From Rhynchopus sp. YZ270_cl-10 (Eukaryota), in the NCBI GenBank assembly GCA_964035575.1, contig OZ037838.1:930001-994000 (forward strand): DNA of 64,000 nt. Direction: 5' to 3'. Positions 79 through 40,762 of this stretch are shown in pieces. The notes under the pieces are model-generated. The model was not told where the DNA came from. It was given only the letters and a program-made list of their open reading frames with translations, and did no database searches. Made by a program: the position numbers and the translations under genes. Within the stretch, counting starts at the first letter, position 1; each line of letters begins with the position of its first letter.

Positions 79-1091
79 ATGATGGATGTGACCTTTGTGC
101 TGGAAGAGTCAGGCGTGACTGCGACAGTGGAGGTGCCGTGCGAGGCGGACGTTGCAGCGGCAAAGGAGGTTGCGTGCACGGCGCTTGCTGTCTCGCCTGC
201 GTCTGTCGAGATGCGCATCGGCACGCAGGTGCTGGAGGGGACGTGCCGTCTGCAGGACACTGCGTTTGACCCAGGGGTGCAGGTTGTGCTGGCCTGCCCT
301 CGCTTTGCCGACATCAAGTGTCCTGCTCAGTACAGTGTAGAGGCGCCAACTGGTGGGCAGGAGAGGACTATCAAGCGTTTTTCGCTGTCTCCTTGTGGAG
401 CACTCTGCCTCTTTGCACAGAATGCAGGCTACGTCACTGGCCTCGATACAGAAACCCTCAGCCCTGCCTTCAGGTTCAAAGTAGACATTGTGGTGTACGG
501 TGTGCCTGCCATCTCACGGTGCAAGACACGCTGCTACCTGGCGTGCAGGGAAGGTATGCACGAGGTTGCGCTTCCGGGTGGGGAGGTGCTGACCTGACGT
601 TGCTCCGCTCTCTTTCGCACGAAGGGTGCAGGCGTGTGGCTGTGTCGCACTGTGGTGGGTGGGTGATCACCTTCTCACGCAGTGATAAGAAGGCACGTCT
701 GTGGGATGTGAACACAGGTGAAGAAGTGGCATGTGTGCTGATCGGAGGGGAACACCACGAAGTAGCACTTTCACGGTCGGCCTCTGTCTTTGCTGTGGGG
801 GTAGTAAACCGCGTGCGCCTCTTTGATTGGAGTGGTGCGGCTCTTGGCAGCATTGATGTGGATGGCAATATCGAGCACATGCAGTTCACCCCGTGTGGGA
901 AGTACATTGTACTCAATGTGTTGAGTGTCACGCATGGTTTGGAGCTGCACCAGTATGATGTTGCGACCCTTTCCTGTGTGCGTGTATTCACGGAAATAGG
1001 ACGTAACAGGTTTGTGATATCGCCCTGTTCGCGTATAGTTGTGTTTCCATCCGAAGGCCGCCTTCTGACACGCCACCTGTACCCAGAATAG
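79..1091 (+). pseudogene. UBL-WD40 family copy 1, frameshifted
   Basis: ATG at 79 with the same UBL as the paralogs. At ~590 GAGGTGCT joins directly to GACCTGACG, a ~91-nt deletion relative to copy 2. This gives a stop at 597, and the remainder continues in another frame to 1091. Confidence 0.85.
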
Positions 1092-1625
1092 TTGGTGCCT
1101 GCGTGTGACGCTAGCCCTGCGCCACCAGAGTCGTCCACACCCAGGAGTCGTCACTGGCATGGATGACAGAGCATCGTGGATGGCGAGGGGCGTTCATTAG
1201 TCCACACGACTTTGACAATGGAAGTGCGCTCAATGCGGAGAGTGCACGGGTTGACGGAAAGGCTGGGGTGTGTTTGATAACAATTACGGGTAATTCTTGC
1301 ACAGAATATGGCCACATGTGTGTCTGTGGGGTGGGTTGATGGAAGTGTGAAGCAGTGCGAATTCACAACTGTGGCACACAAAGAGAAAAGCTGCTCGCAT
1401 GAGCCAAAGGCGAACAGTTTTTTTTACATGGTTGGGTTCACTGCAGTACGAAGATGCACTGTCACGTGAGGGCAGTCGCCATTTTTTTAAATGGGTGTAG
1501 GGCGGAGCTCCACTCTTCCAATGTTGGGAATTTGGTCATCTTTTTTGCTCAGTAAGAGAAAATGGAACAGAGTGGGAATGCAACGAGCTTTTTTTTTCGT
1601 AATATTTTGTTCTCCCCACTAAATA

Positions 1626-2002
1626 CCGTAAACGGAACTATTCTGGGCTGTAACTATTCTGAGACAGAAGTATTCTGGGCCGGAACAAAACTGGAACACT
1701 TGGGTTTTTTGGGGGTGTCCCAGTTTTGTTCCGGCCCAGAATAGTTCTAGTTGGGGTAGAATTTTTATCCCCGTTCCCACCCCACCCAGGTACATAGTGC
1801 ATCTTTGGGCAAAAAAAAGTGTACCGAACCCGTCCTCGGACAGGTGATTGTCGAAACTACAAGGAGTCGCACTCCTCGTTTTTTTGACAAGGCACGGAAA
1901 CCCCCCCAAAACAATGCTGGTGCGGAACAAAACTGGAACAACGATCGAGGATTTTTTGGGGTGTTCCAGTTTTATTCCGGCCCAGAATATATCTTTTTAC
2001 GG
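1626..2002. mobile_element. MITE with CCGT...ACGG termini, TA-flanked
   Basis: TA|CCGTAAA...TTTACGG|TA with internal palindromic GGGCCGGAACAAAACTGG arms. It is absent from the paralogous spacer at ~8530. A second copy lies in opposite orientation at 61680-62009. Confidence 0.8.
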
Positions 2003-2435
2003 TAATATCGCGCGCAGAGAAACACTTCTTCTTCGCACACCTCCGTTGTTTGTTTTTCTCAACGACACATTTTCTTTTCTTCAAATTTAGCCCCCCGGTA
2101 TCACGTATGACACTGTTTCCGTGCATTCACATTGAAAAGGAGTTCCGTGCTATTCACAGAACCCTATAGACAATTGAGAGTATCTAGCAACAACCAAAAC
2201 AAAGAACGCATACGATGAAGAAGAAGTAATGCAGAAAAAATAGACAAAGAGAAAACAAAGAGATTTTTGACAAAAGGGACAATAAAAGTTCCCAACATAG
2301 TCACGCACACGGGAGTTTAAAGCTGACGTATTTATGCAATTAAAGTGACCCCACAACCAATTTTTTACCAGTTTTAACACCGAACAACTCAAACCCCACC
2401 CATCCACCCCGTGAACAGTGGAGCAAAAAAGAACA

Positions 2436-3521
2436 ATGATGGATGTGACCTTTGTGTTGGAAGAGTCAGGCGTGACTGCGACAGTGGAGGTGCCGTGCGA
2501 GGCGGACGTTGCAGCGGCAAAGAAGGTTGCGTGCACGGCGCTTGCTGTCTCGCCTGCGTCTGTCGAGATGCGCATCGGCACGCAGGTGCTGGAGGGGACG
2601 TGCCGTCTGCAGGACACTGCGTTTGGTGCAGGGGTGCAGGTTGTGCTTGCCCTCCCTCGCTTTGCCGACATCAAGTGTCCTGCTCAGTACAATGCCCGTG
2701 TAGAAGGATTGTCGCTGTCGCGTTGTGGCACGCTCTGTGTCTATGTTTGTGATAGGAATGTAGCTGGCTTCGACACAGAAACCTTCGACACTGTCTTCTC
2801 GTTCGAAATGTGGACTAAAGTGTACGATCGGCCTGCCATCTCGCAGTGCAAGACACGCTGCTACCTGGCGTGTGAGCGAGGCCTTCTCGAGCTTGCGCTT
2901 CCGGGTGGGGAGGTGCTCCGCAAAGTCGACGGCACCTCCAACGCAGCGTTCGCGTGTGGCGGTGTTGTTATCTCAAAGAGCACAGACGGCGTCTCTGTGT
3001 ATGACGAAGACCTGACGTTGCTCCGCTCTCTCTCGCATGAACGGTGCAGAAATGTCGCAGTGTCGGACTGTGGTGGGTGGGTGATAGCCTCATCCTTCCT
3101 TGAAAAGAAGGCACGTCTATGGGATGTGAACACAGGTGAAGCTGTGGCATGTGTGCCCGTGGCAAGGGGCAATGTGGCGCTTTCACGGTCTGCCTCTGTC
3201 TTTGCTGTGGAGGGCTCTGACAACGTGCACCTCTATGATTGGAGTGGTGTGGCTATGGGCAGCTTTGCACAGGACACAGGCACTTACTTCTGCGGCATGC
3301 AGTTCACCCCGTGTGGGAAGTACCTTGTGATTAACAGTATGGATGTTGCACAGTGCGCTGCCTGGTCCCTGCTTCAGTATGATCTGTCGAGCATGTCCTG
3401 CGTACGTGAGATACCGAACACCAAAGGTTCGCCCTTTACGATATCGCCATGTTCGCGTGTGGTTGTGTTTGAAAACCAGTCTGGCAACACTATACTAACA
3501 AGACACCTGCACCCCTACTAG
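2436..3521 (+). CDS. UBL-WD40 family copy 2 (ubiquitin-like domain + 7-blade beta-propeller)
   Basis: Intact ORF. The N-terminus MDVTFVLEESGVTATVEV...LQDTAF follows the ubiquitin fold pattern. WD motifs such as RLWDVNTGE, LYDWSG and QFTPCGKY are present. Confidence 0.85.
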   Translation: MMDVTFVLEESGVTATVEVPCEADVAAAKKVACTALAVSPASVEMRIGTQVLEGTCRLQDTAFGAGVQVVLALPRFADIKCPAQYNARVEGLSLSRCGTLCVYVCDRNVAGFDTETFDTVFSFEMWTKVYDRPAISQCKTRCYLACERGLLELALPGGEVLRKVDGTSNAAFACGGVVISKSTDGVSVYDEDLTLLRSLSHERCRNVAVSDCGGWVIASSFLEKKARLWDVNTGEAVACVPVARGNVALSRSASVFAVEGSDNVHLYDWSGVAMGSFAQDTGTYFCGMQFTPCGKYLVINSMDVAQCAAWSLLQYDLSSMSCVREIPNTKGSPFTISPCSRVVVFENQSGNTILTRHLHPY

Positions 3522-3925
3522 GGTCTGAGGTGCGTCCCTCTTTCTTGCCTAATAGCTTCTTCATTTGCGCAAAGGCGAAATGTCAAAGATGAAACATCAT
3601 CAAAGAGTTTTCCTCCCCTAAACACCCTGGTTTTGTCGTGCGATTAATGTTAAGTTTCTATTTTGCTTACTTTTCCATGAGGATCCAATCCGTTAAACGG
3701 AAACACAACCTGCTGACGAGTGGTTGTGGACCTTCCCCCTTCACACCACAGTAAGGGCAAGCTGAGGTTTCTTTTCACATCTCCTGTGTGTTTGCAGGGT
3801 ATCTTCAAATTGCTTGTTTTGTCAGAGTTTGTTGAAACACGTATTCAACCCACCAACCTTCTTATTTGTCGTTGCGAAGTGACACCACCAACCATCACAT
3901 CAACCACAACAGACCCCTTAACAAT

Positions 3926-5041
3926 ATGATGGATGTGACCTTTGTGCTGGAAGAGTCAGGCGTGACTGCGACAGTGGAGGTGCCGTGCGAGGCGGACGTT
4001 GCAGCGGCAAAGGAGGTTGCGTGCACGGCGCTTGCTGTCTCGCCTGCGTCTGTCGAGATGCGCATCGGCACGCAGGTGCTGGAGGGGACGTGTCGTCTGC
4101 AGGACACTGCGTTTGGTGCAGGGGTGCAGGTTGTGCTTGCCCGCCCTCGTTTTGCCGACATCAAGTGTCCTGGTGGGTACACTGCAAAGTCGCAAGCGAC
4201 AACGTTCACGCTGTCTCGTTGTGGAACGCTCTGCGTACATAGTTGCGAGACTGGTCATATTGGCGGCTTCGACACAGAAACCTTCGACACTGTCTTCTCG
4301 TTCATAGTGGACAATAAAGTATCCGGTGCGCCTGCCATCTCGCAGTGCAAGACACGCTGCTACCTGCCGTGTGGGGATCACCTTCTCGAGGTTGCGCTTC
4401 CGGGTGGGGAGGTGGTCCGCAAAGTCAAGGGCATCTCAGACGCAGTGTTCTCCTCTGGCGGTGTTATTGTTTCCCAAGGCATAAACCAAGGCGTCTCTGT
4501 GTATGACGAAGGCCTGAGGTTGCTCCGCACTCTCTCGCACAAGCAGTGCAGTGGGGTGGCAGTATCGGACTGTGGTGGGTGGGTGATCACCTGCTCCTGG
4601 GTGGAGCGGAACGTACGTCTGTGGGATGTGAACACAGGTGAAGCTGTTGCATGTGTGCCATTGGAGGGGTACGGGAGCTTACGAGTGGCACTTTCGCAAT
4701 GTGCCTCTGTATTTGCTGTGGCGAGCTGTGGCACCGTGAGCCGCGTGCACCTCTATGATTGGAGTGGTGCGGCTCTTCGCAGTGTTGATATGGATAAGGC
4801 TGTAGCGGGAATGCAGTTCACCCCGTGTGGGAAGTACCTTGTGGTGGGGGTGGTAATTTTTGATTATGTTAGGTTCGAAACGCTGCACCAGTTTGATGTG
4901 TCGAACATGTCCTGTGTGCATGTGATATCGTATAGCGCAGATGCGCCCTTTGCGATATCGCCGTGTTCACGCGTTGTTGTGACTATGCCAAATCCTGGCT
5001 ACATTGCGACGAGACATCTGTACCCACACAACAGTGAGTGA
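3926..5041 (+). CDS. UBL-WD40 family copy 3
   Basis: Intact paralogous ORF starting MMDVTF, ending HLYPHNSE. Confidence 0.85.
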   Translation: MMDVTFVLEESGVTATVEVPCEADVAAAKEVACTALAVSPASVEMRIGTQVLEGTCRLQDTAFGAGVQVVLARPRFADIKCPGGYTAKSQATTFTLSRCGTLCVHSCETGHIGGFDTETFDTVFSFIVDNKVSGAPAISQCKTRCYLPCGDHLLEVALPGGEVVRKVKGISDAVFSSGGVIVSQGINQGVSVYDEGLRLLRTLSHKQCSGVAVSDCGGWVITCSWVERNVRLWDVNTGEAVACVPLEGYGSLRVALSQCASVFAVASCGTVSRVHLYDWSGAALRSVDMDKAVAGMQFTPCGKYLVVGVVIFDYVRFETLHQFDVSNMSCVHVISYSADAPFAISPCSRVVVTMPNPGYIATRHLYPHNSE

Positions 5042-5389
5042 TGTTTGGCCAAGGGAGGGGAGGGAAAGTAGTGATGCATTTGACCCTTTTCTCTTGTTTG
5101 CCTGCCACAGGTTGCCGGGTGTCAGGTCGCCCACCTCACACGTGGGGTTCGTTGTGGGTCGGAAACACAAACCTGACACCGAGCAGTTGTGTCCCTTCCC
5201 CCTTCACCACACGTACGGGCAAGCCATGAGGTTTCTTTTCACATCTCCTGTGTATTTGCAGGGTATTTTCAAATTGCTTGTTTTGTCAGAGTTTGTTGAA
5301 ACACGTATTTAACCCACCAACCTTCTTATTTGTCGTTGCGAAGTGACACCACCAACCATCACATCAAACACAACAGAGCCCTTAACAAT

Positions 5390-6538
5390 ATGATGGATGT
5401 GACCTTTGTGCTGGAAGAGTCAGGCGTGACTGCGACAGTGGAGGTGCCGTGCGAGGCGGACGTTGCAGCGGCAAAGGAGGTTGCGTGCACGGCGCTTGCT
5501 GTCTCGCCTGCGTCTGTCGAGATGCGCATCGGCACGCAGGTGCTGGAGGGGACGTGCCGTCTGCAGGACACTGCGTTTGATGCAGGGGTGCAGGTTGTGC
5601 TTGCCTGTCCTCACTTTGCCGACATCAAGTGTCCTGCTCAGTGCAGTATCCAGGGCAACGTGCAGAACTTCTCGCTGTCTCGTTGTGGAACGCTTTGTCT
5701 CTCTTTCCACAGGACTGACGATGCACGTATTGCCTGCGTAGGCTTTGACACAGAAACCTTCGACACTGCCTTCACGTTTGACATAGATGTTCGATGCTAT
5801 GGCCTAGCTGCCATCTCACGGTGCAAAAAACGCTGCTACGTGGCGTGCAGGGAAGGTATGCACGAGGTTGCGCTTCCGGGTTGGGAGGTGCTCCGCAAAG
5901 TCGACGGCGCCTCGCACTCAGTGTTCGCGTGTGGCAATGTTGTTGTCTCGAAGGGCACAGACGGCGTCTCTGTGTATGACGAAAACCTGACGTTGCTCCG
6001 CTCTCTCTCGCATGAAGGGTGTATGGGAGCGGCAGTGTCGGACTGTGGTGGGTGGGTGATCACCTCCTCCTACAAGGAGATGAAGGTACGTCTGTGGGAT
6101 GTGAACACAGGTGAAGGTGTGGCGTGTGTTCCTACGTATGGGTGGAACATGGCACTTTCGCGGTCTGCCTCTGTCTTTGCTGTGGCTGGCTCTGACACTG
6201 TGGACGATGCGTGCTCTAGCAAAGTCCACCTCTATGACTGGCGTGGTGTTGCCCTTGGCAGCTTTGAAAAGGAGGATTATCTAGTCTGTGGCGTGCATTT
6301 CACTCCGTGTGGGAAGTACGTCGTAGTTGCGTTTGTGGAGTCGGTGGTATCTACCTACACATGTCCACTCCACCAGTATGATGTGGCGACCATGTCCTGT
6401 GTGCGTGTGATACCGGACAGCTCAGGTGCATTTGCGATATCACCGTGTTCACGTGTGGTTGTGTTCGGGAGTCAGGCCCAGGGCGATACAACAAGCAGCA
6501 TTGTAACAAGGCATCTGTACCCACACAACAGTGAGTGA
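5390..6538 (+). CDS. UBL-WD40 family copy 4
   Basis: Intact paralogous ORF. Confidence 0.85.
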   Translation: MMDVTFVLEESGVTATVEVPCEADVAAAKEVACTALAVSPASVEMRIGTQVLEGTCRLQDTAFDAGVQVVLACPHFADIKCPAQCSIQGNVQNFSLSRCGTLCLSFHRTDDARIACVGFDTETFDTAFTFDIDVRCYGLAAISRCKKRCYVACREGMHEVALPGWEVLRKVDGASHSVFACGNVVVSKGTDGVSVYDENLTLLRSLSHEGCMGAAVSDCGGWVITSSYKEMKVRLWDVNTGEGVACVPTYGWNMALSRSASVFAVAGSDTVDDACSSKVHLYDWRGVALGSFEKEDYLVCGVHFTPCGKYVVVAFVESVVSTYTCPLHQYDVATMSCVRVIPDSSGAFAISPCSRVVVFGSQAQGDTTSSIVTRHLYPHNSE

Positions 6539-7044
6539 TGTTTCGCGAGGGGTGGGAGGGTGGTGACTGTATTCTGACAGAAGAGGACAGTGCAAGTGTC
6601 TGCAGAGGGTATACCATCAACTGCATAGGCCGCACCGTGAATCTAACTCAAGCGGACGGCTTTTCACACACAACACACAAAGACTTTGTTGTTGCGTATT
6701 CTTTTCTTGTGCAGTTGCAATGCCTGCGTGCCAGAGGCGTTTGCACTATGAACTTCACTTTTATTTCGGTATCGTTTCGTGTTAACTCTTTGCTTCTTTC
6801 GATCAACTTCACGTTCATGTTGGTATCGTTTATTGTTGACTATTTGTTTGTCTTCATTATCCATGAGGATCCCCCAGTGAACCGTTTGTGACCCTGCACT
6901 GCCTGGGCAGTCGTTATCGTTGACGTTCGTCTGTAGCATACAAGAAAGAAGAAAGTCTCCAGGTACCAGACATGACCTTCTTATTTGTCGTTGCGAAGTG
7001 ACACCACCAACCATCACATCAAACACAACAGACCCCTTAACAAT

Positions 7045-8199
7045 ATGATGGATGTGACCTTTGTGCTGGAAGAGTCAGGCGTGACTGCGACAGTGGAGGT
7101 GCCGTGCGAGGCGGATGTTGCAGCGGCAAAGGAGGTTGCGTGCACGGCGCTTGCTGTTTCGCCTGCGTCTGTCGAGATGCGCATCGGCACGCAGGTGCTG
7201 GAGGGGACGTGCCGTCTGCAGGACACTGCGTTTGATTCAGGGGTGCAGGTTGTGCTTGCCCGCCGCTTTGCCGACATCAAGTGTCCTGCTGAGAAAAGTG
7301 ACCACGCAGATTACTTGAAGCTGTCGCGTTGTGGAACGCTCTGCGTTTTTTGGAACTGGTTTGGGCATGCTGTTGGCTTTGACACAGAAACCTTCGACAC
7401 GGTCTTCTCGTTTGAGATAGACAATATGTTGTGCGGTCCGCCAGCCATCTCACGGTGCAAGACACGCTGCTACCTGCCGTGCAGGGAAGGTATGCACGAG
7501 GTTGCGCTTCCGGGTGGGGAGGTGCTCCGCGAAGTCGACGGCATCTCAGAGTCAGTGTTCGCGTGTGGTGGTGTTGTTGTCTCGAAGGGTGACGACGGCG
7601 TCTCTGTGTATGACGAAGACCTGACGTTGCTCCGCTTTCTCTCGCACGAAGAGTCTATGGGAGCGGCAGTGTCGGACTGTGGTGGGTGGGTGATCACCTC
7701 TTCCGAAAAAGAGCAGAATGCACGTCTGTGGGATGTGAACACAGGAGAAGCTGTGGCATGTGTGCCATGTGTTCCTGCGGGGTGGAGCGAAGGGGTGGCG
7801 CTTTCACGGTCCGCCTCCGTCTTTGCTGTGGCAGGCTCCAACACCGTACAGCTCTATGATTGGAGTGGTGCGGCTCTTGGCAGTATTGATGTGCACGAAG
7901 TTCTTCGGGATGGGATCGACAGGGACATGCAGTTCACCCCGTGTGGGAAGTACCTTGTAGTGAAGATGGATGCTGCGGAAAGCAGAGATGGCGGAGGAGA
8001 TGCTGATTACAATGCACACCTCCTGCACCAGTATGATGTGGCGACCATGTCCTGTGTGCGTGTGATCCCGCAAATGACAAAGAGTTGGTCATTTGATATA
8101 TCACCGTGTTCGCGTATGGTTGTGTTAGGGAGCGAGGATCAAGTCGACACCAGAAGAGTCATACTCACAAGGCATCTGTACCCATACAACAGTGAGTGA
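7045..8199 (+). CDS. UBL-WD40 family copy 5
   Basis: Intact paralogous ORF. Confidence 0.85.
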   Translation: MMDVTFVLEESGVTATVEVPCEADVAAAKEVACTALAVSPASVEMRIGTQVLEGTCRLQDTAFDSGVQVVLARRFADIKCPAEKSDHADYLKLSRCGTLCVFWNWFGHAVGFDTETFDTVFSFEIDNMLCGPPAISRCKTRCYLPCREGMHEVALPGGEVLREVDGISESVFACGGVVVSKGDDGVSVYDEDLTLLRFLSHEESMGAAVSDCGGWVITSSEKEQNARLWDVNTGEAVACVPCVPAGWSEGVALSRSASVFAVAGSNTVQLYDWSGAALGSIDVHEVLRDGIDRDMQFTPCGKYLVVKMDAAESRDGGGDADYNAHLLHQYDVATMSCVRVIPQMTKSWSFDISPCSRMVVLGSEDQVDTRRVILTRHLYPYNSE

Positions 8200-9037
8200 C
8201 GTGTCACTCACTGTCGTGAATTGCTTGCCTATGGAGTGGCAGTGCCACCGTACCAGAGGACGTTTGCACTGTCAACTTCACTTTTATTTCGGTATGGTTT
8301 CGTGTTAACTCTTTGCTTGTTTCGATCAACTTCTGTTTTACGCAACATCCCACCCGTTTGTTTTTCAAGAGTTTGTCGCCATTTTTTAAATGGGTGTAGG
8401 GCGGAGCTCCACTCTTCCAATGTTAGGAATTTGGTCATCTTTTTTGCTCAGTAAGAGAAAACGGAACGGAGTGGGAACGCAGTGGGAATGCAACGAGCTT
8501 TTTTTTCGTTATTGTTTTGTTCTTCCCACTAAATATCACGCGCAGAGAAACACTTCTTCTTCCCACACCTGCGTTGTTTGTTTTACTCGACGACACATTT
8601 TCTTTTCTTCAAATTTAGCCCCCCGGTATCACGTATGATACTGTTTCCGTGCATTCGCATTGAAAAGGAGTTCCGTGCTATTCACAGAACCCAACAGACA
8701 ATTGAGAGCATCTAGCAACAACCAAAACAAAGAACGCATACGATGAAGAAGAAGTAATGCAGAAAAAATAGACAAAGAGAAAACAAAGAGATTTTTGACA
8801 AAAGGGACAATAAAAGTTCCCAACATAGTCACGCACACGGGAGTTTAAAGCTTGACGTATTTATGCAATTAAAGTGACCCCACAACCCATTTTTTCCAGT
8901 TTCAACACCGAACAACTCAAACCCCACCCACCTCATCACTACCCCGTTAACAGTGGAGCAAAAACTGCCCCACCCCTCCCCCAAAGCCCTACCTCATCTC
9001 CACCTAACAGAGGTGGAGCAAAGAAGAAGAAGAAACA

Positions 9038-12000
9038 ATGATGGATGTTGGTGCTATCCGGGGGGCGGCGTTTCACAAAGTTTCACAATTTTTCACAAAA
9101 TATCACACAATTTCAATCCTATGCACAACGTGTCACAACGTTTCGCAACATTTCACAACTTTGCACAACTTTTCACAACGTTTCACAACTTTTCACAACT
9201 TTTCACAACTTTTCACAACTTTTCACAACTATATGTTGTGAAAAGTTGTGAAACGTTGTGAAAAGTTGTGATTTTGTTTGAAATTTTGTGAAAAGTTGTG
9301 AAAAGTTGTGATTTTGTTTGAAAATTGTGAAAAGTTGTGAAAGTTGTGAATAGTTGTGAAAAGTTGTGAATAGTTGTGAAAAGTTGTGATTTTGATTGAC
9401 ATTTTGCGAAACTTTGTGAAAAGTTGTGAAAAGTTGTGAAAAGTTGTGAATAGTTGTGAAAAGTTGTGATTTTGATTGAAATTTTGTGAGCCCGTTTTTT
9501 GATTTTTATAGGGGCTTTCTGAAGGGGGGTTGGCATGGGTAGTGGTCACGGTGGGAACACGACAGAGCTTATTGTAACCACAGGACGCGCCGATTTTGAC
9601 TGAACACGGCTGAGCCCTTCCGCGACAATGTGTGATTTATGGTATGTACTTCCCCAAAACAACTCAAATGGCTATCAAAGCGCCAACCTCATCAAATCTA
9701 TACCGTGCCTTATTAATATTGGTACCCCAGAAATAAAGAATACCAAGTACGCAACAACTGCGCAACAAGTACGCAAAATGGGGTGGGCTTCATTTTTACT
9801 TTGTGGGTATTTTTTGGGGATTTTTGGTTTTAGGGTTCCAGAAGCCAGTTTGTGCACGCATTGACCCCAAAAGTGCAGAAATCACCTGAAAGTGGGGTGA
9901 TCCGGGTTGTATTCTGCTACGAAATTCGCAAACCAGGAAAAATCGGAAAAAAAATGCGAAAAATTCGCAATGCGATTTTTTGCGATTCGCGTTTCGGGTT
10001 TTTGCGATTTTTTGCGCACAGGTGTGACAAGTCACACGTGGTCACATGTACCCACGTACCCAGGTACCCAGACCCACGCAGTGTCACATGACCTCAAGTG
10101 TGAGTGACCCACGCATGAGGGAATGCGACACCGCAAAAATTACCACAGACCCTGTCTTCCTGCACCTTCGGTGCAACGCCGCAGACAGGCCAACAGCATT
10201 GGACTCAGAGGAATGCCCGCTATGCAGGTATCAAACATGAAAACCAACTCCCAGCAACAAGGGGCGCCTTTTGGCGGGCGTTGTTGAGGTGTTTTGGGGT
10301 GCAAAGTTTTCCACAATTTTGATGCGTGGGTACAGAAGTGTTGTCTTGTTCTTTCATCTCTAGGAATGTAACAGTGGCTGTGCCATACAGATACCGGGGG
10401 ACAAGACGTGCTACAATCCGGAGGATGACGAAGACATGGATGAACCGAGGCTACACTCGCTATACAACAATGCCCTCGCCATGCCGGTAAATGGCAACAC
10501 TGCAGGCCACCCCTTGGCGGTATTCCCCCACGACTACATCGCACCCATCTGTGCAAGCTTCATGGATCTGCAGAACCTACAGCTGGACGGGTTTACGGGT
10601 TGTGGAAGCCTACAAAGCAAACTGTAGAGGTCTTGTTCAAGCGGAACGAAAAAAATTCTCTCTTCAAAACTCAAATTTCCCTCATAGTTTTGTTTGTACA
10701 CTTTTCCCAAGGTAAAATCCCTACCAAAAAAAAAAAACTCGCCAAAACTCGCCCCCCAAAAATGGGCGAGTTTTGGGCCAGGGATATTGCTAAAAACCAT
10801 CGACCATCGCCCCACTGAATTTGGGGTTCCCCCCCTTTCCATAAACCATCGCACCATCGCCCCACGGTAACTAGTGTACTATGGTACTATGCAATTGGTC
10901 AAGCGCCGAAGGAAAAGGAAGCATGCAGCATGGCGAAAGACAAAAAGTAGCGTACCGTGCGCCTGCGGCGCAAGCTTGCAACCCACCCTTCCCATGACAG
11001 AGTTTGGCAGTAAAAATGTGCAAATTTTAGCCAAATTTTAGGAATGTTGCGTACCGTGGCTTCGCCAGGAACCTTTGGGTACCACGACCGCCGTTTCTCT
11101 TGTAAATGTACTGAGGTTACTGATAATTCGTGTGCCCCGTCTGCCTGGTGTAAATATCATTGAAGTGCCGAACTCCGCAGTTGGACAACCACGGAATTCA
11201 TACATTCCGCCGGAGGCCCCCAACTTGAGCTAAGGTGGGGACCCGGGCGCGCGAAGCGCGCCCCGGGATCGACTGGAAAAAAAAGTCCGCACTCCCCCCC
11301 CTTTTTTCGACCATCGCCCCACGAAATCCCGAAAGTTAGCAATATCCCTGGTTTTGGGCGAGTAGGCGAGTTTTTTGGGAAGTTTTTCGGGTTTACGGGT
11401 AGGGTCACTGTGTACAAATTTATTTAACTCAAGTAGCAGAATTAAAATTCCAGCATCTCTACCCCCCCTTTACGGAGTGACAACAACTGGTAGAAACACG
11501 GTAGAACCACGGGGAATTGCACACCAATTGATTACATTATTTGGATAATCTTTTAAACAACCACCACCTCTTACAGGTTTCGTGTCCGCGAATCTGCCTA
11601 CTGTTCTTTTGGATGTACCAGAAGAAGATGCAGAGACTGAAGCTGCTGGAGGCGATGGAGCCGGCGGACTCGCTGGAAGTAGGAGATGCACAGCACCTGC
11701 ACAGAGCTGATGTTCAAGCATTGACGACGAAGGGTCGTTTGCCCTGGCGTCCTAGTAGACGTTTGCTGTCTCCCCTGCTGCTGATGGACGGGCTACACAC
11801 TCTGCACCATCGTTACAGCTCATAAGACCGAGATGCAAGCTAAAAAAACCCTCATGTCTTCACAACTCTTCACAACTCTTCACAACTCTTCACAAGTTTT
11901 CACAAGTTTTCACAACCCTCTTGAGCCTTTACGTGTGAAAAGTTGTGAAGAGTTGTGAAACGTTGTGAAAAGTTGTGATTTTGATTGAAATTTTGTGGAA

Positions 12001-13292
12001 TTTTGTGGAATTTTGTGAAAAGTTGTGAATAGTTGTGAAAAGTTGTGATTTTGATTGAAAATTGTGAAAAGTTGTGAAAGTTGTGAAAAGTTGTGAATAG
12101 TTGTGAAAAGTTGTGATTTTGATTGAAATTTTGTGAAACTTTGTGAAACGCCGCCCCCCGGATAGCACCAGATGTGACCTTTGTGCTGGAAGAGTCAGGC
12201 GTGACTGCGACAGTGGAGGTGCCGTGCGAGGCGGACGTTGCAGCGGCAAAGGAGGTTGCGTGCACGGCGCTTGCTGTCTCGCCTGCGTCTGTCGAGATGC
12301 GCATCGGCACGCAGGTGCTGGAGGGGACGTGCCGTCTGCAGGACACTGCGTTTGATTCAGGGGTGCAGGTTGTGCTTGCCTGTCCTCACTTTGCTGACAT
12401 CAAGTGTCCTGCTCAGTACAATTCAAAGATGTCACATAGGAACCTGCTGTTGTCGCTGTCGCGTTGTGGAACGCTCTGCGTCTATGGTGACTGGATGGGG
12501 CATGTTGGCGGCTTCGACACAGAAACCTTCGACACTGTCTTCTGGTTCAAAGTGGACGATGTTGTGCGCGGTGCGCCTGCCATCTCTCGGTGCAAGACAC
12601 GCTGCTACCTGCCGTTTAAGTATTACCTTCTCGGGGTTGCGCTTCCGGGTGGGGAGGTGGTCCACAAAGTCAACGGCCTCTCCATTTTATTACGGGCGTG
12701 TGGCGGTGTTGTTGTCTCGAAGGGCGACGAAGGCGTCTCTGTGTATGACGAAGACCTGACGTTGCTCCGCTCTCTCTCGCACGAAAGCTGTAAGCGAGCG
12801 GCAGTGTCGGACTGTGGTGGATGGGTGCTGTCCTCTTCCGACAAGGAGTACAACATACGTCTGTGGGATGTAAACACAGGTGTTGCTGTTGCATGTGTAC
12901 CTGCGGATTGCTGGGGTCGACTGGAGCTTTCACGGTCCGCCTCTGTGTTTGCTGTGGAAGGGAAAAACACCATGCAGCTCTATGATTGGAGTGGTGCGGC
13001 TCTTCACAGTGTTGATGTGGGTGAGAATCTCTGGGGCATGCAGTTCACACCATGTGGGAAGTACCTTGTGGTGGGGGTTCATGTTGCTGAGTCTGATGAT
13101 GACGAAGACGACAGTTCTGAGTACAGTTCACAACTGCACCAGTATGATGTGGCGACCATGTCTTGTGTGCATGTGATACCGCAAAACTCAGGTGTGTACT
13201 TTGAGATATCGCCGTGTTCACGTGTTGTTGTGGTTGGGAAATCACATGGCGTCATTGTGACAAAGCATCTGTACCCACACAACAGTGAGTGA
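9038..13292 (+). CDS. UBL-WD40 family copy 6, interrupted after codon 3 by a 3.1-kb transposon (pseudogene, or rescued by splicing)
   Basis: ATGATGGATGT at 9038-9048. The gene resumes GATGTGACCTTT at 12171 and is open to 13292. Confidence 0.75.
9071..9490. repeat. 10-mer array (TTTTCACAAC)n followed by inverted (GTTGTGAAAA)n
   Basis: Directly visible; orientation flips at ~9232. Confidence 0.9.
11858..12147. repeat. 10-mer array (TCTTCACAAC)n then (GTTGTGAAAA)n
   Basis: Directly visible; right subterminal array of the 9049-12170 element. Confidence 0.9.
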
Positions 13293-13615
13293 TGTGTGAC
13301 CAGGGGAGGGGAGGGAGAGTGGTGATCAAAATATCCAAGAGTACCAGCGAAAAAACCCAAGACCTCAAAACACCCCCAAGAAGCTCCCTTTTAGCCCTGT
13401 TACTACTTTTCTCTTTTTTGTTTACCTGCCACAGGCCGCCCACCTTACACGCTGCCCATGCGGCGCTCTCGTGTGGGTGACACATCGCGATGTTGAGTGT
13501 TGTTTTCCATTCGTCACCTCTCACAACGATAACCACCACAGACATGCAACACACAACAACACCTCTCCCCACCCACCCACCCCGTGAGCAGTGGAGCAAA
13601 ACAGAAGAAGAAACA

Positions 13616-14743
13616 ATGATGGATGTGACCTTTGTGCTGGAAGAGTCAGGCGTGACTGCGACAGTGGAGGTGCCGTGCGAGGCGAAGGTTGCAGCGGCAA
13701 AGCAGGTTGCGTGCACGGCGCTTGCTGTCTCGCCTGCGTCTGTCGAGATGCGCATCGGCACGCAGGTGCTGGAGGGGACGTGCCGTCTGCAGGACACTGC
13801 GTTTGATGCAGGGGTGCAGGTTGTACTTGCCCGCCGCTTTGCTGACATCAAGTGTCCTGCTCAGTGCAGTACCCAGGGCAACGTGCAGAGCTTCTCGCTG
13901 TCTCGTTGTGGAACGCTTTGTCTCTCTTTCCACAGGACTGACGATGCACGTATTGCCTGCGTAGGCTTTGACACAGAAACCTTCGACACCGCCTTCACGT
14001 TTGACACAGATTTTCGATGCTATGGCCTAGCTGATATCTCACGGTGCAAGACACGCTGCTACCTGGTGTGTGGGTATCACTTCCTCGAGGTTGCGCTTCC
14101 GGGTGGGGAGGTGCTCCGCAAAGTCGACGGCACCTGTACGTCAGTGTTTGCGTGTGGCAATGTTGTTGTCTCAAAGGGCAAAGACGGCGTCTCTGTGTAT
14201 GACGAAGACCTGATGTTGCTCCGCACCCTTTGGCACGAGTGGTGCAGTGAAGTTGCAGTGTCGAACTGTGGTGGGTGGGTGATCACCTCCTCTTTCAGCG
14301 AGAAGAACACACGTCTGTGGGATGTCAACACAGGAGAAGCTGTGGCATGTGTGCCTATGCATGGGTGGCATATGGCGATCTCACAGGTTGCCTCTGTCTT
14401 TGCTGTGGCTGGCTCTGACACTGTGGATGATGCGTGCTCTAGCAAAGTACACCTCTATGACTGGCGTGGTGTTGCCCTTGGCAGCTTTGAAAAGGAGGAT
14501 TATCTAGTCTGTGGCGTGCATTTCACTCCGTGTGGGAAGTACGTCGTAGTTGCGTTTGTCGATGAGGCGGATGTATATCCCGACACATGTCCACTCCACC
14601 AGTATGATGTGGCGACCATGTCCTGTGTGCGTGTGATACCGGACAGCAAAGGTGCATTTGCGATATCACCGTGTTCACGTGTGGTTATGTTTGAGCCATC
14701 AGAAGGTGATGCCCTTGTTACGAGACATCTGTACCCCTACTGA
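13616..14743 (+). CDS. UBL-WD40 family copy 7
   Basis: Intact paralogous ORF. Confidence 0.85.
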   Translation: MMDVTFVLEESGVTATVEVPCEAKVAAAKQVACTALAVSPASVEMRIGTQVLEGTCRLQDTAFDAGVQVVLARRFADIKCPAQCSTQGNVQSFSLSRCGTLCLSFHRTDDARIACVGFDTETFDTAFTFDTDFRCYGLADISRCKTRCYLVCGYHFLEVALPGGEVLRKVDGTCTSVFACGNVVVSKGKDGVSVYDEDLMLLRTLWHEWCSEVAVSNCGGWVITSSFSEKNTRLWDVNTGEAVACVPMHGWHMAISQVASVFAVAGSDTVDDACSSKVHLYDWRGVALGSFEKEDYLVCGVHFTPCGKYVVVAFVDEADVYPDTCPLHQYDVATMSCVRVIPDSKGAFAISPCSRVVMFEPSEGDALVTRHLYPY

Positions 14744-15126
14744 GTGATGTTTTTTGTGTGATGAAAACCAGAGTAGCCCTCATGAGCGGGACAGCGCGCA
14801 GCAGAGAGTCTCTTGGCAGGTCAGAGGCGTGCAGTCCCTGGAGACCCTGTGTGGGAAGTACCTCCTCGCTGTCGCTGAGTACTGCGGTGTGTTGCTATCG
14901 TGCGTTGCATCAGTATTTGCGTTGCACCCTCGACCTGCTAGCCTGTGAGGGAATTCATTTTGAGACATTTTGAGGATAACAACCACACCACCCTTTACCT
15001 TTATTTTTCACTTTTGCTTTGTTAAAACCCTCTTCTGTTGGTGGAAACTACAGACACACAAACACGCAAGACAACCCACACCTCATCTCCTTCCTAACAG
15101 AGGTGGAACAAGAAGAAGACAAAACA

Positions 15127-16287
15127 ATGGATGTGACCTTTGTGCTGGAAGAGTCAGGCGTGACTGCGACAGTGGAGGTGCCGTGCGAGGCAGACGTTGC
15201 AGCGGCAAAGGAGGTTGCGTGCACGGCGCTTGCTGTCTCGCCTGCGTCTGTCGAGATGCGCATCGGCACGCAGGTGCTGGAGGGGACGTGCCGTCTGCAG
15301 GACACTGCGTTTGATGCAGGGGTGCAGGTTGTGCTTGCCCGCCGCTTTGCCGACATCAAGTGTCCTGCTGAGTGCAGTATCCAGGGCAACGTGCAGAGCT
15401 TCTCGCTGTCTCGTTGTGGAACGCTTTGTCTCTCTTTCCACAAGACTGACGATGCACGTATTGCCTGCGTAGGCTTTGACACAGAAACCTTCGACACTGC
15501 CTTCACGTTTGACACAGATTTTCGATGCTATGGCCAAGCTGCGATCTCGCAGTGCAAGACACGCTGCTACCTGGCGTGTTTGCAGGAAGGCCTTCTCGAG
15601 GTTGCGCTTCCGGGTGGGGAGGTGCTCCGCAAAGTCGACGGCATCTGGAAGTCAGTGTACGCGTATGGCGGTGTTGTTGTCTCGAAGGGCATGGACGGCG
15701 TCTCTGTGTATGACGAAAACCTGACGTTGCTCCGCTCTCTCTCGCACGAAGGGTGCAGTGAAGTTGCAGTGTCGAACTGTGGTGGGTGGGTGATCACCTC
15801 CTCCTACAGTGAGAAGAACGTACGTCTGTGGGATGTGAACACAGGTGAAGCTGTGGCATGTGTGCCTACGAAGGGCCCCACCCAGCGCCACGGCCCGCCG
15901 ACGTTTTGTTATAGAGTGGCGCTTTCACGGTCTGCCTCCGTCTTTGCTGTGGACGGGAGAAACACCGTGCAGCTCTGTGATTGGAGTGGCGCGGCTCTTC
16001 ACAGTGTTAATGTAGGTGAGGATCTCTGGGGCATGCAGTTCACACCATGTGGGAAGTACCTTGTGGTGGGGGTTCATGTTGTTGAGTCTGATGATGACGA
16101 AGACGACAGTTTTGAGTACAGTTCACAACTGCACCAGTATGATGTGGCGACCATGTCCTGTGTGCATGTGATACCGCAAAACTCAGGTGTGTCCTTTGCG
16201 ATATCGCCGTGTTCACGTGTGGTTGTGGTTTTGCAATTAGATGGCGTCATTGCGATAAAGCATCTGTACCCACACAACAGTGAGTGA
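15127..16287 (+). CDS. UBL-WD40 family copy 8
   Basis: Intact paralogous ORF. Confidence 0.85.
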   Translation: MDVTFVLEESGVTATVEVPCEADVAAAKEVACTALAVSPASVEMRIGTQVLEGTCRLQDTAFDAGVQVVLARRFADIKCPAECSIQGNVQSFSLSRCGTLCLSFHKTDDARIACVGFDTETFDTAFTFDTDFRCYGQAAISQCKTRCYLACLQEGLLEVALPGGEVLRKVDGIWKSVYAYGGVVVSKGMDGVSVYDENLTLLRSLSHEGCSEVAVSNCGGWVITSSYSEKNVRLWDVNTGEAVACVPTKGPTQRHGPPTFCYRVALSRSASVFAVDGRNTVQLCDWSGAALHSVNVGEDLWGMQFTPCGKYLVVGVHVVESDDDEDDSFEYSSQLHQYDVATMSCVHVIPQNSGVSFAISPCSRVVVVLQLDGVIAIKHLYPHNSE

Positions 16288-16631
16288 TGTGTGGCCAAGG
16301 GAGGGGAGGGGGAGGGTGGTGATGAATATAACCCAGAGTCCCAGGGGAAAAACCCAAGACCTCAAAACACCCAAGAAACTCCCCTTTCAGCCCTGTTGCT
16401 GTTTTTCTCTCGTTTGCCTGCCACAGCTCACACGCTGCCCATGCGGCGCTCTCGTGTGGGTGACAGATCGCGATGCTGAGTATCATTTTCCATTCGTCAC
16501 CTCTCACAACGAGAACCACCACAAACATGCAACACAGACCAACACCTCTCCCCCACCCACCTCATCACTCCCTCCGTTTGTGGTGGAGCAAACGTGCTGA
16601 TTTGCACCTTCTCACGGAGCAACGCAAAACA

Positions 16632-17789
16632 ATGGATGTGACCTTTGTGCTGGAAGAGTCAGGCGTGACTGCGACAGTGGAGGTGCCGTGCGAGGCGGAC
16701 GTTGCAGCGGCAAAGGAGGTTGCGTGCACGGCGCTTGCTGTCTCGCCTGCGTCTGTCGAGATGCGCATCGGCACGCAGGTGCTGGAGGGGACGTGCCGTC
16801 TGCAGGACACTGCGTTTGATGCAGGGGTGCAGGTTGTGCTTGCCTGTCCTCGTTTTGCCAACATCAAGTGTCCTGCTCAGTACAGTACCCAGGGCAACGT
16901 GCAGAGCTTCTCGCTGTCTCGTTGTGGAACGCTTTGTCTCTCTTTCCACAAGACTGACGATGCACGTATTGCCTGCGTAGGCTTTGACACAGAAACCTTC
17001 GACACTGCCTTCACGTTTGACACAGATTTTCGATGCTTTGGCCAAGCTGCGATCTCGCAGTGCAAGACACGCTGCTACCTGGCAAGCGAGCAAGGCCTTC
17101 TCGAGGTTGCGCTTCCGGGTGGGGAGGTGGTCCGCAAAGTCGACGGCGTCTCGAAGTCAGTGTACGCGTGTGGCAGTGTTGTTGTCTCGAAGGGCAGAGA
17201 TGGCGTTTCTGTGTACGACGAAGACCTGACGTTGCTCCGCTCTCTCTTGCATGAGATGTGCAGTGAAGTTGCAGTGTCGGACTGTGGTGGGTGGGTGATC
17301 ACCTCCTCCTACAAGGAGAAGAACGTACGTCTGTGGGATGTGAACACAGGTGAAGCTGTGGCATGTGTACCTACGAAGGGGCGGGGCATGGCGCTGGGTG
17401 GGGCGACGTCTTGTTGTAGAGTGGCGCTTTCAAGGTCTGCCTCCGTCTTTGCTGTGGAAGGGAAAAACACCATGCAGCTCTATGACTGGAGTGGTGCGGC
17501 CCTTCGCAGCGTTGATGTGGGTGAGAATCTCTGGGGCATGCAGCTCACACCATGTGGGAAGTACCTTGTGGTGGGGGTTCATGTTGCTGACTCGGGTGAT
17601 GACGAAGGTGACATTGTTGAGTACAGTTCACAACTGCACCAGTATGATGTGTCGACCATGTCCTGTGTGCATGTGATGTCGCAAGTGCCAGGCGTCTTTG
17701 CGATATCACCGTGTTCACGTGTTGTTGTGGATATGCAATCAAACGGTGTCATTGCGATAAAGCATCTGTACCCACACAACAGTGAGTGA
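16632..17789 (+). CDS. UBL-WD40 family copy 9
   Basis: Intact paralogous ORF. Confidence 0.85.
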   Translation: MDVTFVLEESGVTATVEVPCEADVAAAKEVACTALAVSPASVEMRIGTQVLEGTCRLQDTAFDAGVQVVLACPRFANIKCPAQYSTQGNVQSFSLSRCGTLCLSFHKTDDARIACVGFDTETFDTAFTFDTDFRCFGQAAISQCKTRCYLASEQGLLEVALPGGEVVRKVDGVSKSVYACGSVVVSKGRDGVSVYDEDLTLLRSLLHEMCSEVAVSDCGGWVITSSYKEKNVRLWDVNTGEAVACVPTKGRGMALGGATSCCRVALSRSASVFAVEGKNTMQLYDWSGAALRSVDVGENLWGMQLTPCGKYLVVGVHVADSGDDEGDIVEYSSQLHQYDVSTMSCVHVMSQVPGVFAISPCSRVVVDMQSNGVIAIKHLYPHNSE

Positions 17790-18129
17790 TGTGTGGCCAA
17801 GGGAGGGGAGGGGGAGGGTGGTGATGAATATAACCCAGAGTCCCAGGGGAAAAAACCCAAGACCTCAAAACACCCAAGAAACTCCCCTTTCAGCCCTGTT
17901 GCTGTTTTTCTCTTGTATGCCTGCCACAGGTCGCCCACCTCACACGCTGCCCATGCGGCGCTCTCGTGTGGGTGACAGATCGCGATGCTGAGTATCATTT
18001 TCCTTTCATGTCACAACGAGAACCACCACACACAGAACAACACCTCTCCCCCACCCACCTCATCACTCCCTCCGTTTGTGGTGGAGCAACCGTGCTGATT
18101 TGCACCTTCTCACGGAGCAACGCAAAACA

Positions 18130-19281
18130 ATGATGGATGTGACCTTTGTGCTGGAAGAGTCAGGCGTGACTGCGACAGTGGAGGTGCCGTGCGAGGCGGA
18201 CATTGCAGCGGCAAAGGAGGTTGCGTGCACGGCGCTTGCTGTCTCGCCTGCGTCTGTCGAGATGCGCATCGGCACGCAGGTGCTGGAGGGGACGTGCCGT
18301 CTGCAGGACACTGCGTTTGATGCAGGGGTGCAGGTTGTGCTTGCCCGCCCTCGCTTGGCCGACATCAAGTGTCCTGCTGAGTACAGTGTAGAGGTGCCCA
18401 CTGGTGGGCAGGACATGAATGTAAATCTGTTTTCGCTGTCTCCTTGTGGAGCACTCTGCCTCTTTACACAGAAGGCAGGCTATGTCACGGGCCTCAATAC
18501 CGAAACCTTCAGCCCTGCCTTCAAGTTCAAAGTAGACATTGATGTGTACGGTGTGCCTGCCATCTCACGGTGCAAGACACGCTGCTACCTGGCGTGCAGG
18601 GAAGGTATGCACGAGGTTGCGCTTCCGGGTGGGGAGGTGCTCCGCAAAGTTGACGGCACCTCGTACTCAGTGGACAGCATCTCGCACTCAGTGTTCGCGT
18701 GTGGCAATGTTGTTGTCTCGAAGGGCAAAGACGTCGTCTCTGTGTATGACGAAGACCTGACGTTGGTCCGCTTTCTCTCACACAAGAGCTGCAGGTACGT
18801 GGCAGTGTCGGACTGTGGTGGGTGGGTGATCAGCTCTTCCCACGTAGAGCTGAATGTATATCTGTGGGATGTGAACACAGGTGTTGCTGTGGCATGTGTC
18901 GATATGACGGGCGAACGCAAAGTAGCGCTTTCACGGTCTGCCTCTGTCTTTGCTGTGGCGGGCTGTGGCAGCGGTAGGCATAACGAAGTGCGACTCTATG
19001 ATTGGAGTGGTGCGGCTCTGGGAAGCTTTGGTAAGGCGGGGCGTTTTCATATCTGTTACATGCAGTTCGCCCCGTGTGGGAAGTATCTCGTACTTGAGTT
19101 TGTGGACGAGTACCATGAATATTCACTGCACCAGTATGATGTGGCGACCATGTCCTGTGTGCGTGTGTTCCCTGTAGTAGCTTTCTACTCTTCCTTTGCG
19201 ATATCGCCGTGTTCCCGTGTGATACTATTTGCGAACTCGCGACGAGACACCATTGTGACGAGACATCTGTACCCCTACTGA
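18130..19281 (+). CDS. UBL-WD40 family copy 10
   Basis: Intact paralogous ORF. Confidence 0.85.
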   Translation: MMDVTFVLEESGVTATVEVPCEADIAAAKEVACTALAVSPASVEMRIGTQVLEGTCRLQDTAFDAGVQVVLARPRLADIKCPAEYSVEVPTGGQDMNVNLFSLSPCGALCLFTQKAGYVTGLNTETFSPAFKFKVDIDVYGVPAISRCKTRCYLACREGMHEVALPGGEVLRKVDGTSYSVDSISHSVFACGNVVVSKGKDVVSVYDEDLTLVRFLSHKSCRYVAVSDCGGWVISSSHVELNVYLWDVNTGVAVACVDMTGERKVALSRSASVFAVAGCGSGRHNEVRLYDWSGAALGSFGKAGRFHICYMQFAPCGKYLVLEFVDEYHEYSLHQYDVATMSCVRVFPVVAFYSSFAISPCSRVILFANSRRDTIVTRHLYPY

Positions 19282-40760: not shown

Positions 40761-40762
40761 AC

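What the first reader, a model, noticed from the sequence alone, without database searches (positions are those of the whole stretch)
79..19281. Tandem array of ubiquitin-like + hypervariable WD40 propeller genes: a candidate diversified recognition repertoire
Seen: 10 tandem copies (13 loci in the window) of a UBL domain fused to a 7-blade propeller. In every blade the a-b turn (SRCGT, SRCKTR, SDCGGW, SRSASV, TPCGKY, SPCSR) and the c-d turn (FDTETFDT, ALPGGEV, YDEDLTL, WDVNTGE, YDWSGAA, YDVATMS) are constant. The d-a and b-c loops (about 14 segments) differ in sequence and length in nearly every copy. Established: d-a and b-c loops form the top, ligand-binding face of WD40 propellers; diversified WD40 sensors are known in fungal HNWD (het-d/het-e) proteins; uncleaved UBLs dock on the proteasome or act as Crinkler-type header domains. 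Inference: this is an antibody-like set of intracellular binders with a constant UBL effector end, possibly routing pathogen or viral proteins to degradation. I do not recognise this architecture as a described system.
Basis: partly seen in the sequence, partly recalled or inferred. Interest (0 to 1): 0.9.

Follow-up and report, generated by a model that had tools for sequence, protein, structure and literature searches.

The report
Antibody-like ubiquitin-propeller family in marine protist
A diplonemid (marine flagellate) carries at least 120 genes that join a near-identical ubiquitin-like domain to a seven-bladed propeller whose one face is under strong selection to change and is reshuffled between copies, which likely makes them a repertoire of intracellular binders that pass changing foreign targets to one shared, still unidentified cellular machine.

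Summary
Observation confirmed. Ten copies lie at 79-19281 (eight intact, two broken) and three more loci further on. The host is a Rhynchopus-like diplonemid. A search gave 412 hits; the 120 listed are all paralogs, 97 on a contig as long as the window's own. Models show a ubiquitin fold (TM 0.78-0.88) plus a 7-blade WD40-type propeller. Across 101 paralogs, entropy is 0.09 bits in the ubiquitin-like domain (UBL), 0.48 on the bottom face and 2.14 on the top face. Codon models give omega 3.6-5.5 for 20-29% of sites; in the strictest model all 33 selected sites are on the top face. A plain count over the whole top half gives only 0.85. Loops are shuffled between paralogs and the UBL is homogenised. 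Function is inferred: cytosolic binders with a constant handle. UBL+WD40 already exists in Rsa4/NLE1 and Ytm1/WDR12, but I found no described diversified family of this build. Expression, targets and partner are untested.

The parts
79..1091 (+). Copy 1, pseudogene: deletion of about 91 nt near 591 removes most of blade 3 and shifts the frame (first ORF 79-597)
2436..3521 (+). Copy 2, intact UBL+propeller gene, 361 aa
3926..5041 (+). Copy 3, intact, 371 aa
5390..6538 (+). Copy 4 (P0001), intact, 382 aa; UBL residues 1-72 (5390-5605), propeller residues 83-375
7045..8199 (+). Copy 5, intact, 384 aa
9038..13292 (+). Copy 6, start codons at 9038 separated from the body (12171-13292) by an insertion
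9049..12170 (.). Transposon-like insertion, 3.1 kb, terminal inverted repeats with 10-bp tandem subrepeats, 5-bp target duplication (9044-9048 and 12171-12175)
13616..14743 (+). Copy 7, intact; shares tracts with copy 4
15127..16287 (+). Copy 8, intact; mosaic (first blade like copies 4/7, blade 6 like copy 6)
16632..17789 (+). Copy 9, intact
18130..19281 (+). Copy 10, intact, 383 aa
40763..41226 (-). Broken family fragment (about residues 55-212) inside a degenerate LINE-like element
58709..59848 (+). Copy 12, intact, 379 aa
62981..64000 (+). Copy 13, cut by the window end

Best explanation
This is a lineage-specific, birth-and-death family of ubiquitin-like plus WD40-type propeller genes whose top face is positively selected and recombined between copies, and it likely works as a set of cytosolic recognition adaptors: the variable face would bind fast-changing foreign proteins, and the constant ubiquitin-like domain with the constant bottom face would hand them to one shared host machine. 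Shown: the two folds (by prediction), one-face variation, positive selection, mosaicism, UBL homogenisation, pseudogenes, no signal peptide or membrane segment, no diglycine after the UBL. Inferred: (1) the top face binds ligands (recalled WD40 knowledge); (2) the ligands come from intracellular bacteria or viruses; (3) the UBL is an uncleaved handle for a ubiquitin-system or AAA-ATPase factor, through a surface other than the Ile44 patch; (4) the outcome is removal or neutralisation of the target. The UBL enters the propeller at strand 7d from the bottom side, so by topology both constant surfaces face away from the variable one.
For: Top/bottom/UBL entropy 2.14/0.48/0.09 bits in 101 paralogs. 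M8 vs M7 2dL 302, omega 4.7, 42 of 42 sites with posterior >0.95 on the top half. The signal survives synonymous rate variation plus multi-nucleotide changes (2dL 39, omega 3.6; 59 of 63 sites on top), and those plus seven segment trees (2dL 32.6, omega 3.8, 33 of 33 on top). Second-position versus four-fold divergence ratio is 1.38 (1.06-1.92) on top and 0.40 on the bottom. Recombination: contiguous segments gain 384 log-likelihood units against 140 +/- 12 (max 165) for 20 permutations; bottom codons alone gain 92 against 41 +/- 6. Of 712 paralog pairs that share a loop, 628 share only one. UBL dS is 0.022 against 0.225 on the bottom face, although the 5' flanks fall into different types. All true N-domain relatives whose sequences I read carry the propeller. 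Highest 19-residue hydropathy is 1.9, with no N-terminal signal. Rhynchopus and Natarhynchopus strains carry chlamydial and holosporacean endosymbionts (bioRxiv 10.64898/2026.01.29.702485, passages). Nematode F-box genes show the same pattern of a conserved N-terminus and a selected C-terminus (PMC8665587, passages).
Against: No target, partner or expression is shown. Nei-Gojobori dN/dS over the whole top half is 0.85 (0.66-1.08), and dS there is high (0.63), so part of the loop divergence is old or rate-driven. The codon models are my own scripts on 11 copies, with fixed relative branch lengths and uncertain loop alignments. The UBL lacks the canonical Leu8/Ile44 patch. UBL dN/dS cannot be estimated (0.14-2.39), so its invariance among close copies may be conversion rather than selection; it is still the best-kept part in 9 of 11 other members compared with copy 4, most of them divergent.
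Confidence: 0.5

Rival explanations
1. Crinkler-like exported effectors. The UBL is a header for signal-peptide-independent export, and the variable propellers bind proteins of prey or hosts (algae, invertebrates) to disable them.
For: CRN headers are UBL folds without true signal peptides (PMC5289972, passages). Classic diplonemids prey on algae and some parasitise lobsters, clams and plants (PMC8061765 section 3.1). The family occurs at low depth in four runs filed under four other coded organism labels. Constant header plus variable C-terminus is the CRN layout.
Against: No enzymatic or toxin domain. None of 7 N-domains matched a Crinkler profile at E up to 10, and there is no LxLFLAK motif (sequence). 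The profile finds ubiquitin itself. CRNs vary by swapping whole C-terminal domains, not by loop-level selection.
Confidence: 0.2
2. Recognition inside the species or genome: self/non-self (het-like) sensing, or adaptors and antidotes against transposon- or selfish-element-encoded proteins.
For: Closest known diversified WD40 sensors (HET-D/HET-E) recognise a polymorphic host protein, HET-C (PMC12222747, abstract and passages). The window holds Tc1, LINE-like and inverted-repeat elements.
Against: No NACHT or cell-death domain. More than a hundred paralogs is far more than known het systems use (recalled). No linked toxin gene in the array.
Confidence: 0.18
3. A repeat family amplified without function, or as a selfish unit: loops drift because they tolerate change, and conversion keeps the framework alike.
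For: Whole-top dN/dS below 1 by counting; four-fold divergence rises near variable columns (0.35 against 0.09-0.14); 3 of 13 loci are broken; expression not shown.
Against: omega 3.6-5.5 class with P about 1e-8 in the strictest model. Bottom-face loops are equally exposed but fixed in length. Loop indels keep the frame in the 11 aligned copies. No mobility gene in the unit.
Confidence: 0.07
4. Direct proteasome shuttle of the Rad23 type: the UBL binds Rpn10/Rpn13 and delivers captured proteins without ubiquitination.
For: Ubiquitin fold with TM 0.78-0.88; uncleavable fusion.
Against: Leu8 faces Glu9 and Ile44 faces Arg45 in the gapless alignment; by extension Val70 faces Ala71. That these residues form the receptor-binding patch is recalled knowledge.
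Confidence: 0.05

Closest known systems
Rsa4/NLE1 and Ytm1/WDR12 (NLE-type UBL + WD40 ribosome assembly factors)
   Same: Same domain order: uncleaved N-terminal UBL, then a WD40 propeller. There the UBL is a handle pulled by the AAA-ATPase Rea1/midasin (PMC8122580, passages).
   Different: Those are conserved, essential genes. Here there are more than a hundred paralogs with a positively selected face; no NLE profile match (0 of 7 N-domains).
Podospora HNWD NLRs HET-D/HET-E
   Same: WD40 propeller with hypervariable, positively selected ligand-face sites on a framework kept alike by concerted evolution (PMC12222747, abstract and passages).
   Different: There the repeats within one gene are homogenised and four codons per repeat vary, in HET-NACHT-WD40 proteins. 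Here the seven blades differ from each other, homogenisation is between paralogs, 14 whole loops vary in length, and there is no NACHT or HET domain.
Expanded F-box adaptor families of Caenorhabditis (and MATH-BTB, recalled)
   Same: Hundreds of tandem, birth-and-death paralogs; conserved N-terminal module, positively selected C-terminal binding domain; proposed to recognise foreign proteins (PMC8665587, passages).
   Different: The constant module here is a UBL, not an F-box or BTB; no cullin link is known.
Crinkler (CRN) effectors with Ubl header
   Same: Constant UBL-fold N-terminus without a signal peptide, large families (PMC5289972, passages).
   Different: CRN C-termini are enzymatic toxin domains; here it is always a non-enzymatic propeller; no LxLFLAK.

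Membership tests
Ubiquitin-like (beta-grasp) domain | beta-beta-alpha-beta-beta ubiquitin fold | tested here: met
   pLDDT 85 model, TM 0.78-0.88 to ubiquitin-type chains; 3 of 7 N-domains hit PF00240, best E 1.6e-4, below the curated cut-off where shown; the window's own domain has no such hit
Conjugatable ubiquitin-like modifier | C-terminal diglycine | tested here: not met
   no GG after strand 5 in the 11 aligned window copies or among the 15 commonest linker variants
Rad23-type proteasome shuttle UBL | Leu8/Ile44/Val70 hydrophobic patch (recalled) | tested here: not met
   Glu9 and Arg45 at Leu8 and Ile44; Ala71 at Val70 by extension
Rad23-type proteasome shuttle UBL | binding to proteasome receptors | not testable with these tools
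   needs a pull-down
WD40-type 7-blade propeller | seven four-stranded blades with velcro closure | tested here: met
   28 strands, first strand 83-88 completing blade 7; Foldseek E 4e-16 to WD40 proteins; Pfam WD40 only weak, below cut-off
NLE1/Rsa4 or WDR12/Ytm1 | UBL followed by WD40 propeller | tested here: met
NLE1/Rsa4 or WDR12/Ytm1 | NLE-type UBL (PF08154) | tested here: not met
   0 of 7 N-domains match at E up to 10; no NLE chain among the 60 PDB rows shown
NLE1/Rsa4 or WDR12/Ytm1 | MIDAS-binding glutamate (E114/E80) | tested here: inconclusive
   no direct alignment to Rsa4 or Ytm1 obtained; the position I recall as equivalent (ubiquitin Glu64) faces Gly65
HNWD NLRs | HET + NACHT domains | tested here: not met
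   360-390 aa proteins with UBL and propeller only
HNWD NLRs | near-identical WD40 repeats within a gene | tested here: not met
   blades differ from each other
HNWD NLRs | diversifying selection on the ligand face | tested here: met
Crinkler effectors | CR-Ubl header/LxLFLAK and enzymatic C-terminal toxin | tested here: not met
   no CRN profile hit, no motif, no enzyme domain
Crinkler effectors | translocation into host cells | not testable with these tools
   needs experiment
Diversity-generating retroelement targets | adenine-specific mutation from a template repeat | tested here: not met
   changes from all four bases at similar rates on the top face

The most novel reading that the evidence does not exclude
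A single-celled eukaryote keeps a germline antibody-like repertoire of several hundred propellers, each with 14 variable loops recombined between paralogs, all wired to one invariant ubiquitin-fold handle that delivers symbiont or viral proteins to a removal machine without ubiquitination: a new class of intracellular immune receptor.
Probability: 0.3. Interest if true: 0.9.

Novelty: new variant of a known kind. Interest (0 to 1): 0.72.

Why it matters
Diplonemids are among the most diverse and abundant marine eukaryotes, and my literature searches found no defence system described for them. This family gives a concrete handle: one invariant 72-residue domain whose partner can be pulled down, and more than a hundred variable faces to screen against symbiont, viral or prey proteins. 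It extends the 'constant adaptor plus selected binding face' design to a ubiquitin-fold head. It is also a natural library showing which 14 loops of a WD40 scaffold tolerate length and sequence change.

Tried and rejected
No whole genome is held, so family size rests on the protein search: 412 hits, only the best 120 listed. Pattern scans with family alignments found no relative in metagenome, viral or prokaryote contigs (0 of 112, 0 of 42, 0 of 80 pattern matches confirmed); these scans reach only close relatives. Expression: no RNA holder listed; run X11 (RNA is a guess) held only short pieces, mostly 90-95% alike; neither bears on expression. Summed contig depth was not used as a copy number. 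A trans-splice acceptor scan found sites upstream of 2 of 11 copies against 81 of 300 control stretches: not informative. Homodimer prediction gave no answer. ESM Atlas gave only generic WD40 leads (best 0.84) and unnamed clusters for the N-domain. The window's own N-domain has no ubiquitin hit in Pfam or PDB by single sequence, and it was unresolved in the full-length model; divergent relatives were needed. In one search, six of 29 hits (P0154, P0156, P0158, P0160-P0162) were set aside as chance matches to repeat proteins: five were checked by sequence or Pfam, P0156 was not read. The segment-tree run timed out and its strictest model was rerun. The VIA-align search was not obtained. Rfam found only an rRNA fragment. 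Earlier-findings look-ups by place, by sequence and by diplonemid words were empty. The primary Crinkler paper was not held; a review was read instead. Supplements were not read; the gene-family tables of PMC10161547 and the closed supplements of the Rhynchopus preprint could mention this family.
Full report
HOST. The window is eukaryotic DNA with long single-exon ORFs. The IST1 gene at 52296 is 86% identical to a protein listed as Rhynchopus euleeides, 70% to one labelled Rhum and 64% to Diplonema papillatum. The host is therefore a Rhynchopus-like diplonemid. No whole genome was available.

OBSERVATION. tblastn finds ten + strand copies in 79-19281, a minus-strand fragment at 41226-40763 and copies at 58709 and 62981. 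Copy 1 carries a frameshifting deletion of about 91 nt; copy 6 is interrupted after its start codons by a 3.1-kb element with inverted ends and a 5-bp target duplication. Eight of ten array copies are intact. Longer ORFs called at 13490, 16473 and 62849 are upstream in-frame extensions; the conserved start is M(M)DVTF.

FAMILY SIZE AND RANGE. One copy returns 412 proteins at E<=0.001. The best 120 are listed: all 55-100% identical over nearly full length, from ENA or the window itself. Of these, 97 lie on a contig of the same length as the window's own (2,712,987 bases) and 23 on six other contig lengths (counted from the table). I did not see the other 292. A search of 1.84 billion representatives with the 82-residue N-domain gave 29 hits. 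I take 23 as true relatives (39-99% identical); those read in full are UBL+propeller proteins. The eight divergent ones looked up sit on 0.44-1.7 Mb ENA contigs without names. No named protein from another species appeared among the true relatives. Pattern scans of metagenome, viral and prokaryote contigs confirmed none. Four further runs of four studies hold family members at low depth, two with UBL DNA differing at 0-1 of 213-221 bases; this points to the same or a nearly identical organism, not a wider range. The family looks lineage-specific, with older outliers.

FOLDS. AlphaFold2 on 97 paralogs (97 of the 120; the 23 longest were left out) gives 28 strands at 83-375, that is seven blades closed by an N-terminal strand. 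Foldseek matches WD40 proteins at E 4e-16. The N-domain was unresolved in that model. With divergent relatives it folds at pLDDT 85 and matches ubiquitin-type chains at TM 0.78-0.88. Three of seven N-domains hit Pfam ubiquitin, best E 1.6e-4, and their profile aligns to ubiquitin without gaps. In that alignment Leu8 faces Glu and Ile44 faces Arg. No diglycine follows the domain. There is no signal peptide or membrane segment.

WHERE THE VARIATION LIES. I split the propeller at strand midpoints of the model into top (d-a, b-c) and bottom (a-b, c-d) halves; that the top face is the usual ligand face is recalled knowledge. In 101 sequences mean entropy is 2.14 bits on top, 0.48 on the bottom and 0.09 in the UBL. 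All 14 top segments vary in length; 11 of 13 bottom segments have one length. Divergent outliers show the same pattern, for example UBL 0.82, bottom 0.64, top 0.26 identity for P0146.

SELECTION. DNA was available for 11 window copies. Against my reading: Nei-Gojobori dN/dS is 0.85 (0.66-1.08) for the whole top half, with dS 0.63 on top, 0.225 on the bottom and 0.022 in the UBL. That count averages framework and loop codons and books multi-hit codons as partly synonymous. Second-position divergence exceeds four-fold divergence on top (ratio 1.38, 1.06-1.92) but not on the bottom (0.40); this four-fold measure is biased low because it needs identical first two bases. With synonymous rate classes and multi-nucleotide changes: 2dL 39, omega 3.6, 59 of 63 on top. 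With seven segment trees alone: 2dL 228, omega 5.5, 39 of 39. With all three corrections: 2dL 32.6, P 1e-8, omega 3.8 for 20% of sites, 33 of 33 on top. There is no adenine bias, so a diversity-generating retroelement is unlikely.

RECOMBINATION. Seven contiguous segments fit their own trees far better than permuted segments (gain 384 against 140 +/- 12; bottom codons only 92 against 41 +/- 6; 20 permutations each). Among 4950 protein pairs, 712 share at least one loop at 80% identity and 628 of these share exactly one; loop-to-loop correlations are 0.04-0.17. The 90% clustering removes the closest paralogs, which lowers apparent linkage. The UBL coding tract is almost identical even at silent sites although the 5' flanks differ by type, and silent divergence falls with distance from variable columns. 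This fits gene conversion that homogenises the constant parts and shuffles loops, with selection keeping loops apart (inference).

MECHANISM. Best reading (0.5): cytosolic adaptors with a variable ligand face and a constant handle for one shared machine of the ubiquitin system or an AAA-ATPase, aimed at proteins of intracellular bacteria or viruses. Rhynchopus and Natarhynchopus strains harbour chlamydial and holosporacean symbionts (bioRxiv 10.64898/2026.01.29.702485, passages). The loss of the Ile44 patch argues against Rad23-type proteasome docking (0.05). Rivals: Crinkler-like export into prey or hosts (0.2; PMC5289972 passages, PMC8061765 section 3.1), recognition within the species or genome (0.18), and drift (0.07). 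Expression, ligand and partner are all untested.

COMPARISON WITH KNOWN SYSTEMS. The domain order equals Rsa4/NLE1 and Ytm1/WDR12, whose UBL is a handle for Rea1 (PMC8122580, passages), but the NLE profile is not matched. The evolutionary pattern resembles HET-D/HET-E (PMC12222747) and nematode F-box families (PMC8665587), without their defining domains. Ten full-text searches (listings and abstract starts) showed no paper describing this family. The main text of the D. papillatum genome paper has no occurrence of WD40, ubiquitin, propeller or immun (PMC10161547), and the Rhynchopus preprint none of WD40, ubiquitin or propeller. The library lacks most subscription papers and supplements were not read. 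Earlier notes of this scan list variable-faced propeller arrays in other genomes; none of the excerpts mentions a UBL, they are unchecked, and they suggest that the variable-face theme is recurrent rather than unique.

VERDICT. A real, well-supported diversified family; new variant of a known kind; function inferred. Interest 0.72.

Noticed in passing
window 40763-41226 (-) within about 40000-41500: A broken family fragment sits inside a degenerate LINE-like element, between motifs that I recall as endonuclease motifs. The same junction shows as loose ends in runs X1, X2 and X7.
   Followed up: partly
window 9049-12170: Transposon-like element with inverted ends built of 10-bp tandem units and a 5-bp target duplication; no long ORF (two of 107 aa); an internal part recurs near 54292-54520.
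   Followed up: partly
P0010: A paralog with an internal duplication of about eight strands (1c to 3b), which would give extra blades; looks like unequal crossing-over.
   Followed up: no
family alignment A1: Near-invariant cysteines at the a-b turn of most blades (C99, C145, C219, C307, C353) and in the UBL (C21, C33) lie on the constant parts; role unknown.
   Followed up: no
window 19663-24018 (+): G8 plus CEMIP beta-helix protein, 1451 aa, directly after the array.
   Followed up: no
window 43221-44244 (+): Tc1/mariner transposase in two overlapping frames.
   Followed up: no
window 60028-61482 (+): Bacterial-type solute-binding domain protein between copies 12 and 13; the ORF ends in a hydrophobic stretch.
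   Followed up: no
window 27757-27932 (+): Isolated 176-nt fragment of large-subunit rRNA.
   Followed up: no
window 30171-33599 (+): 1142-aa protein with a cysteine-rich N-terminal part, proline-threonine repeats, hydrophobic segments and ankyrin repeats; receptor-like.
   Followed up: no
window 53788-55548: Arrays of 31-bp repeats in inverted arrangement, probably the ends of another mobile element.
   Followed up: no
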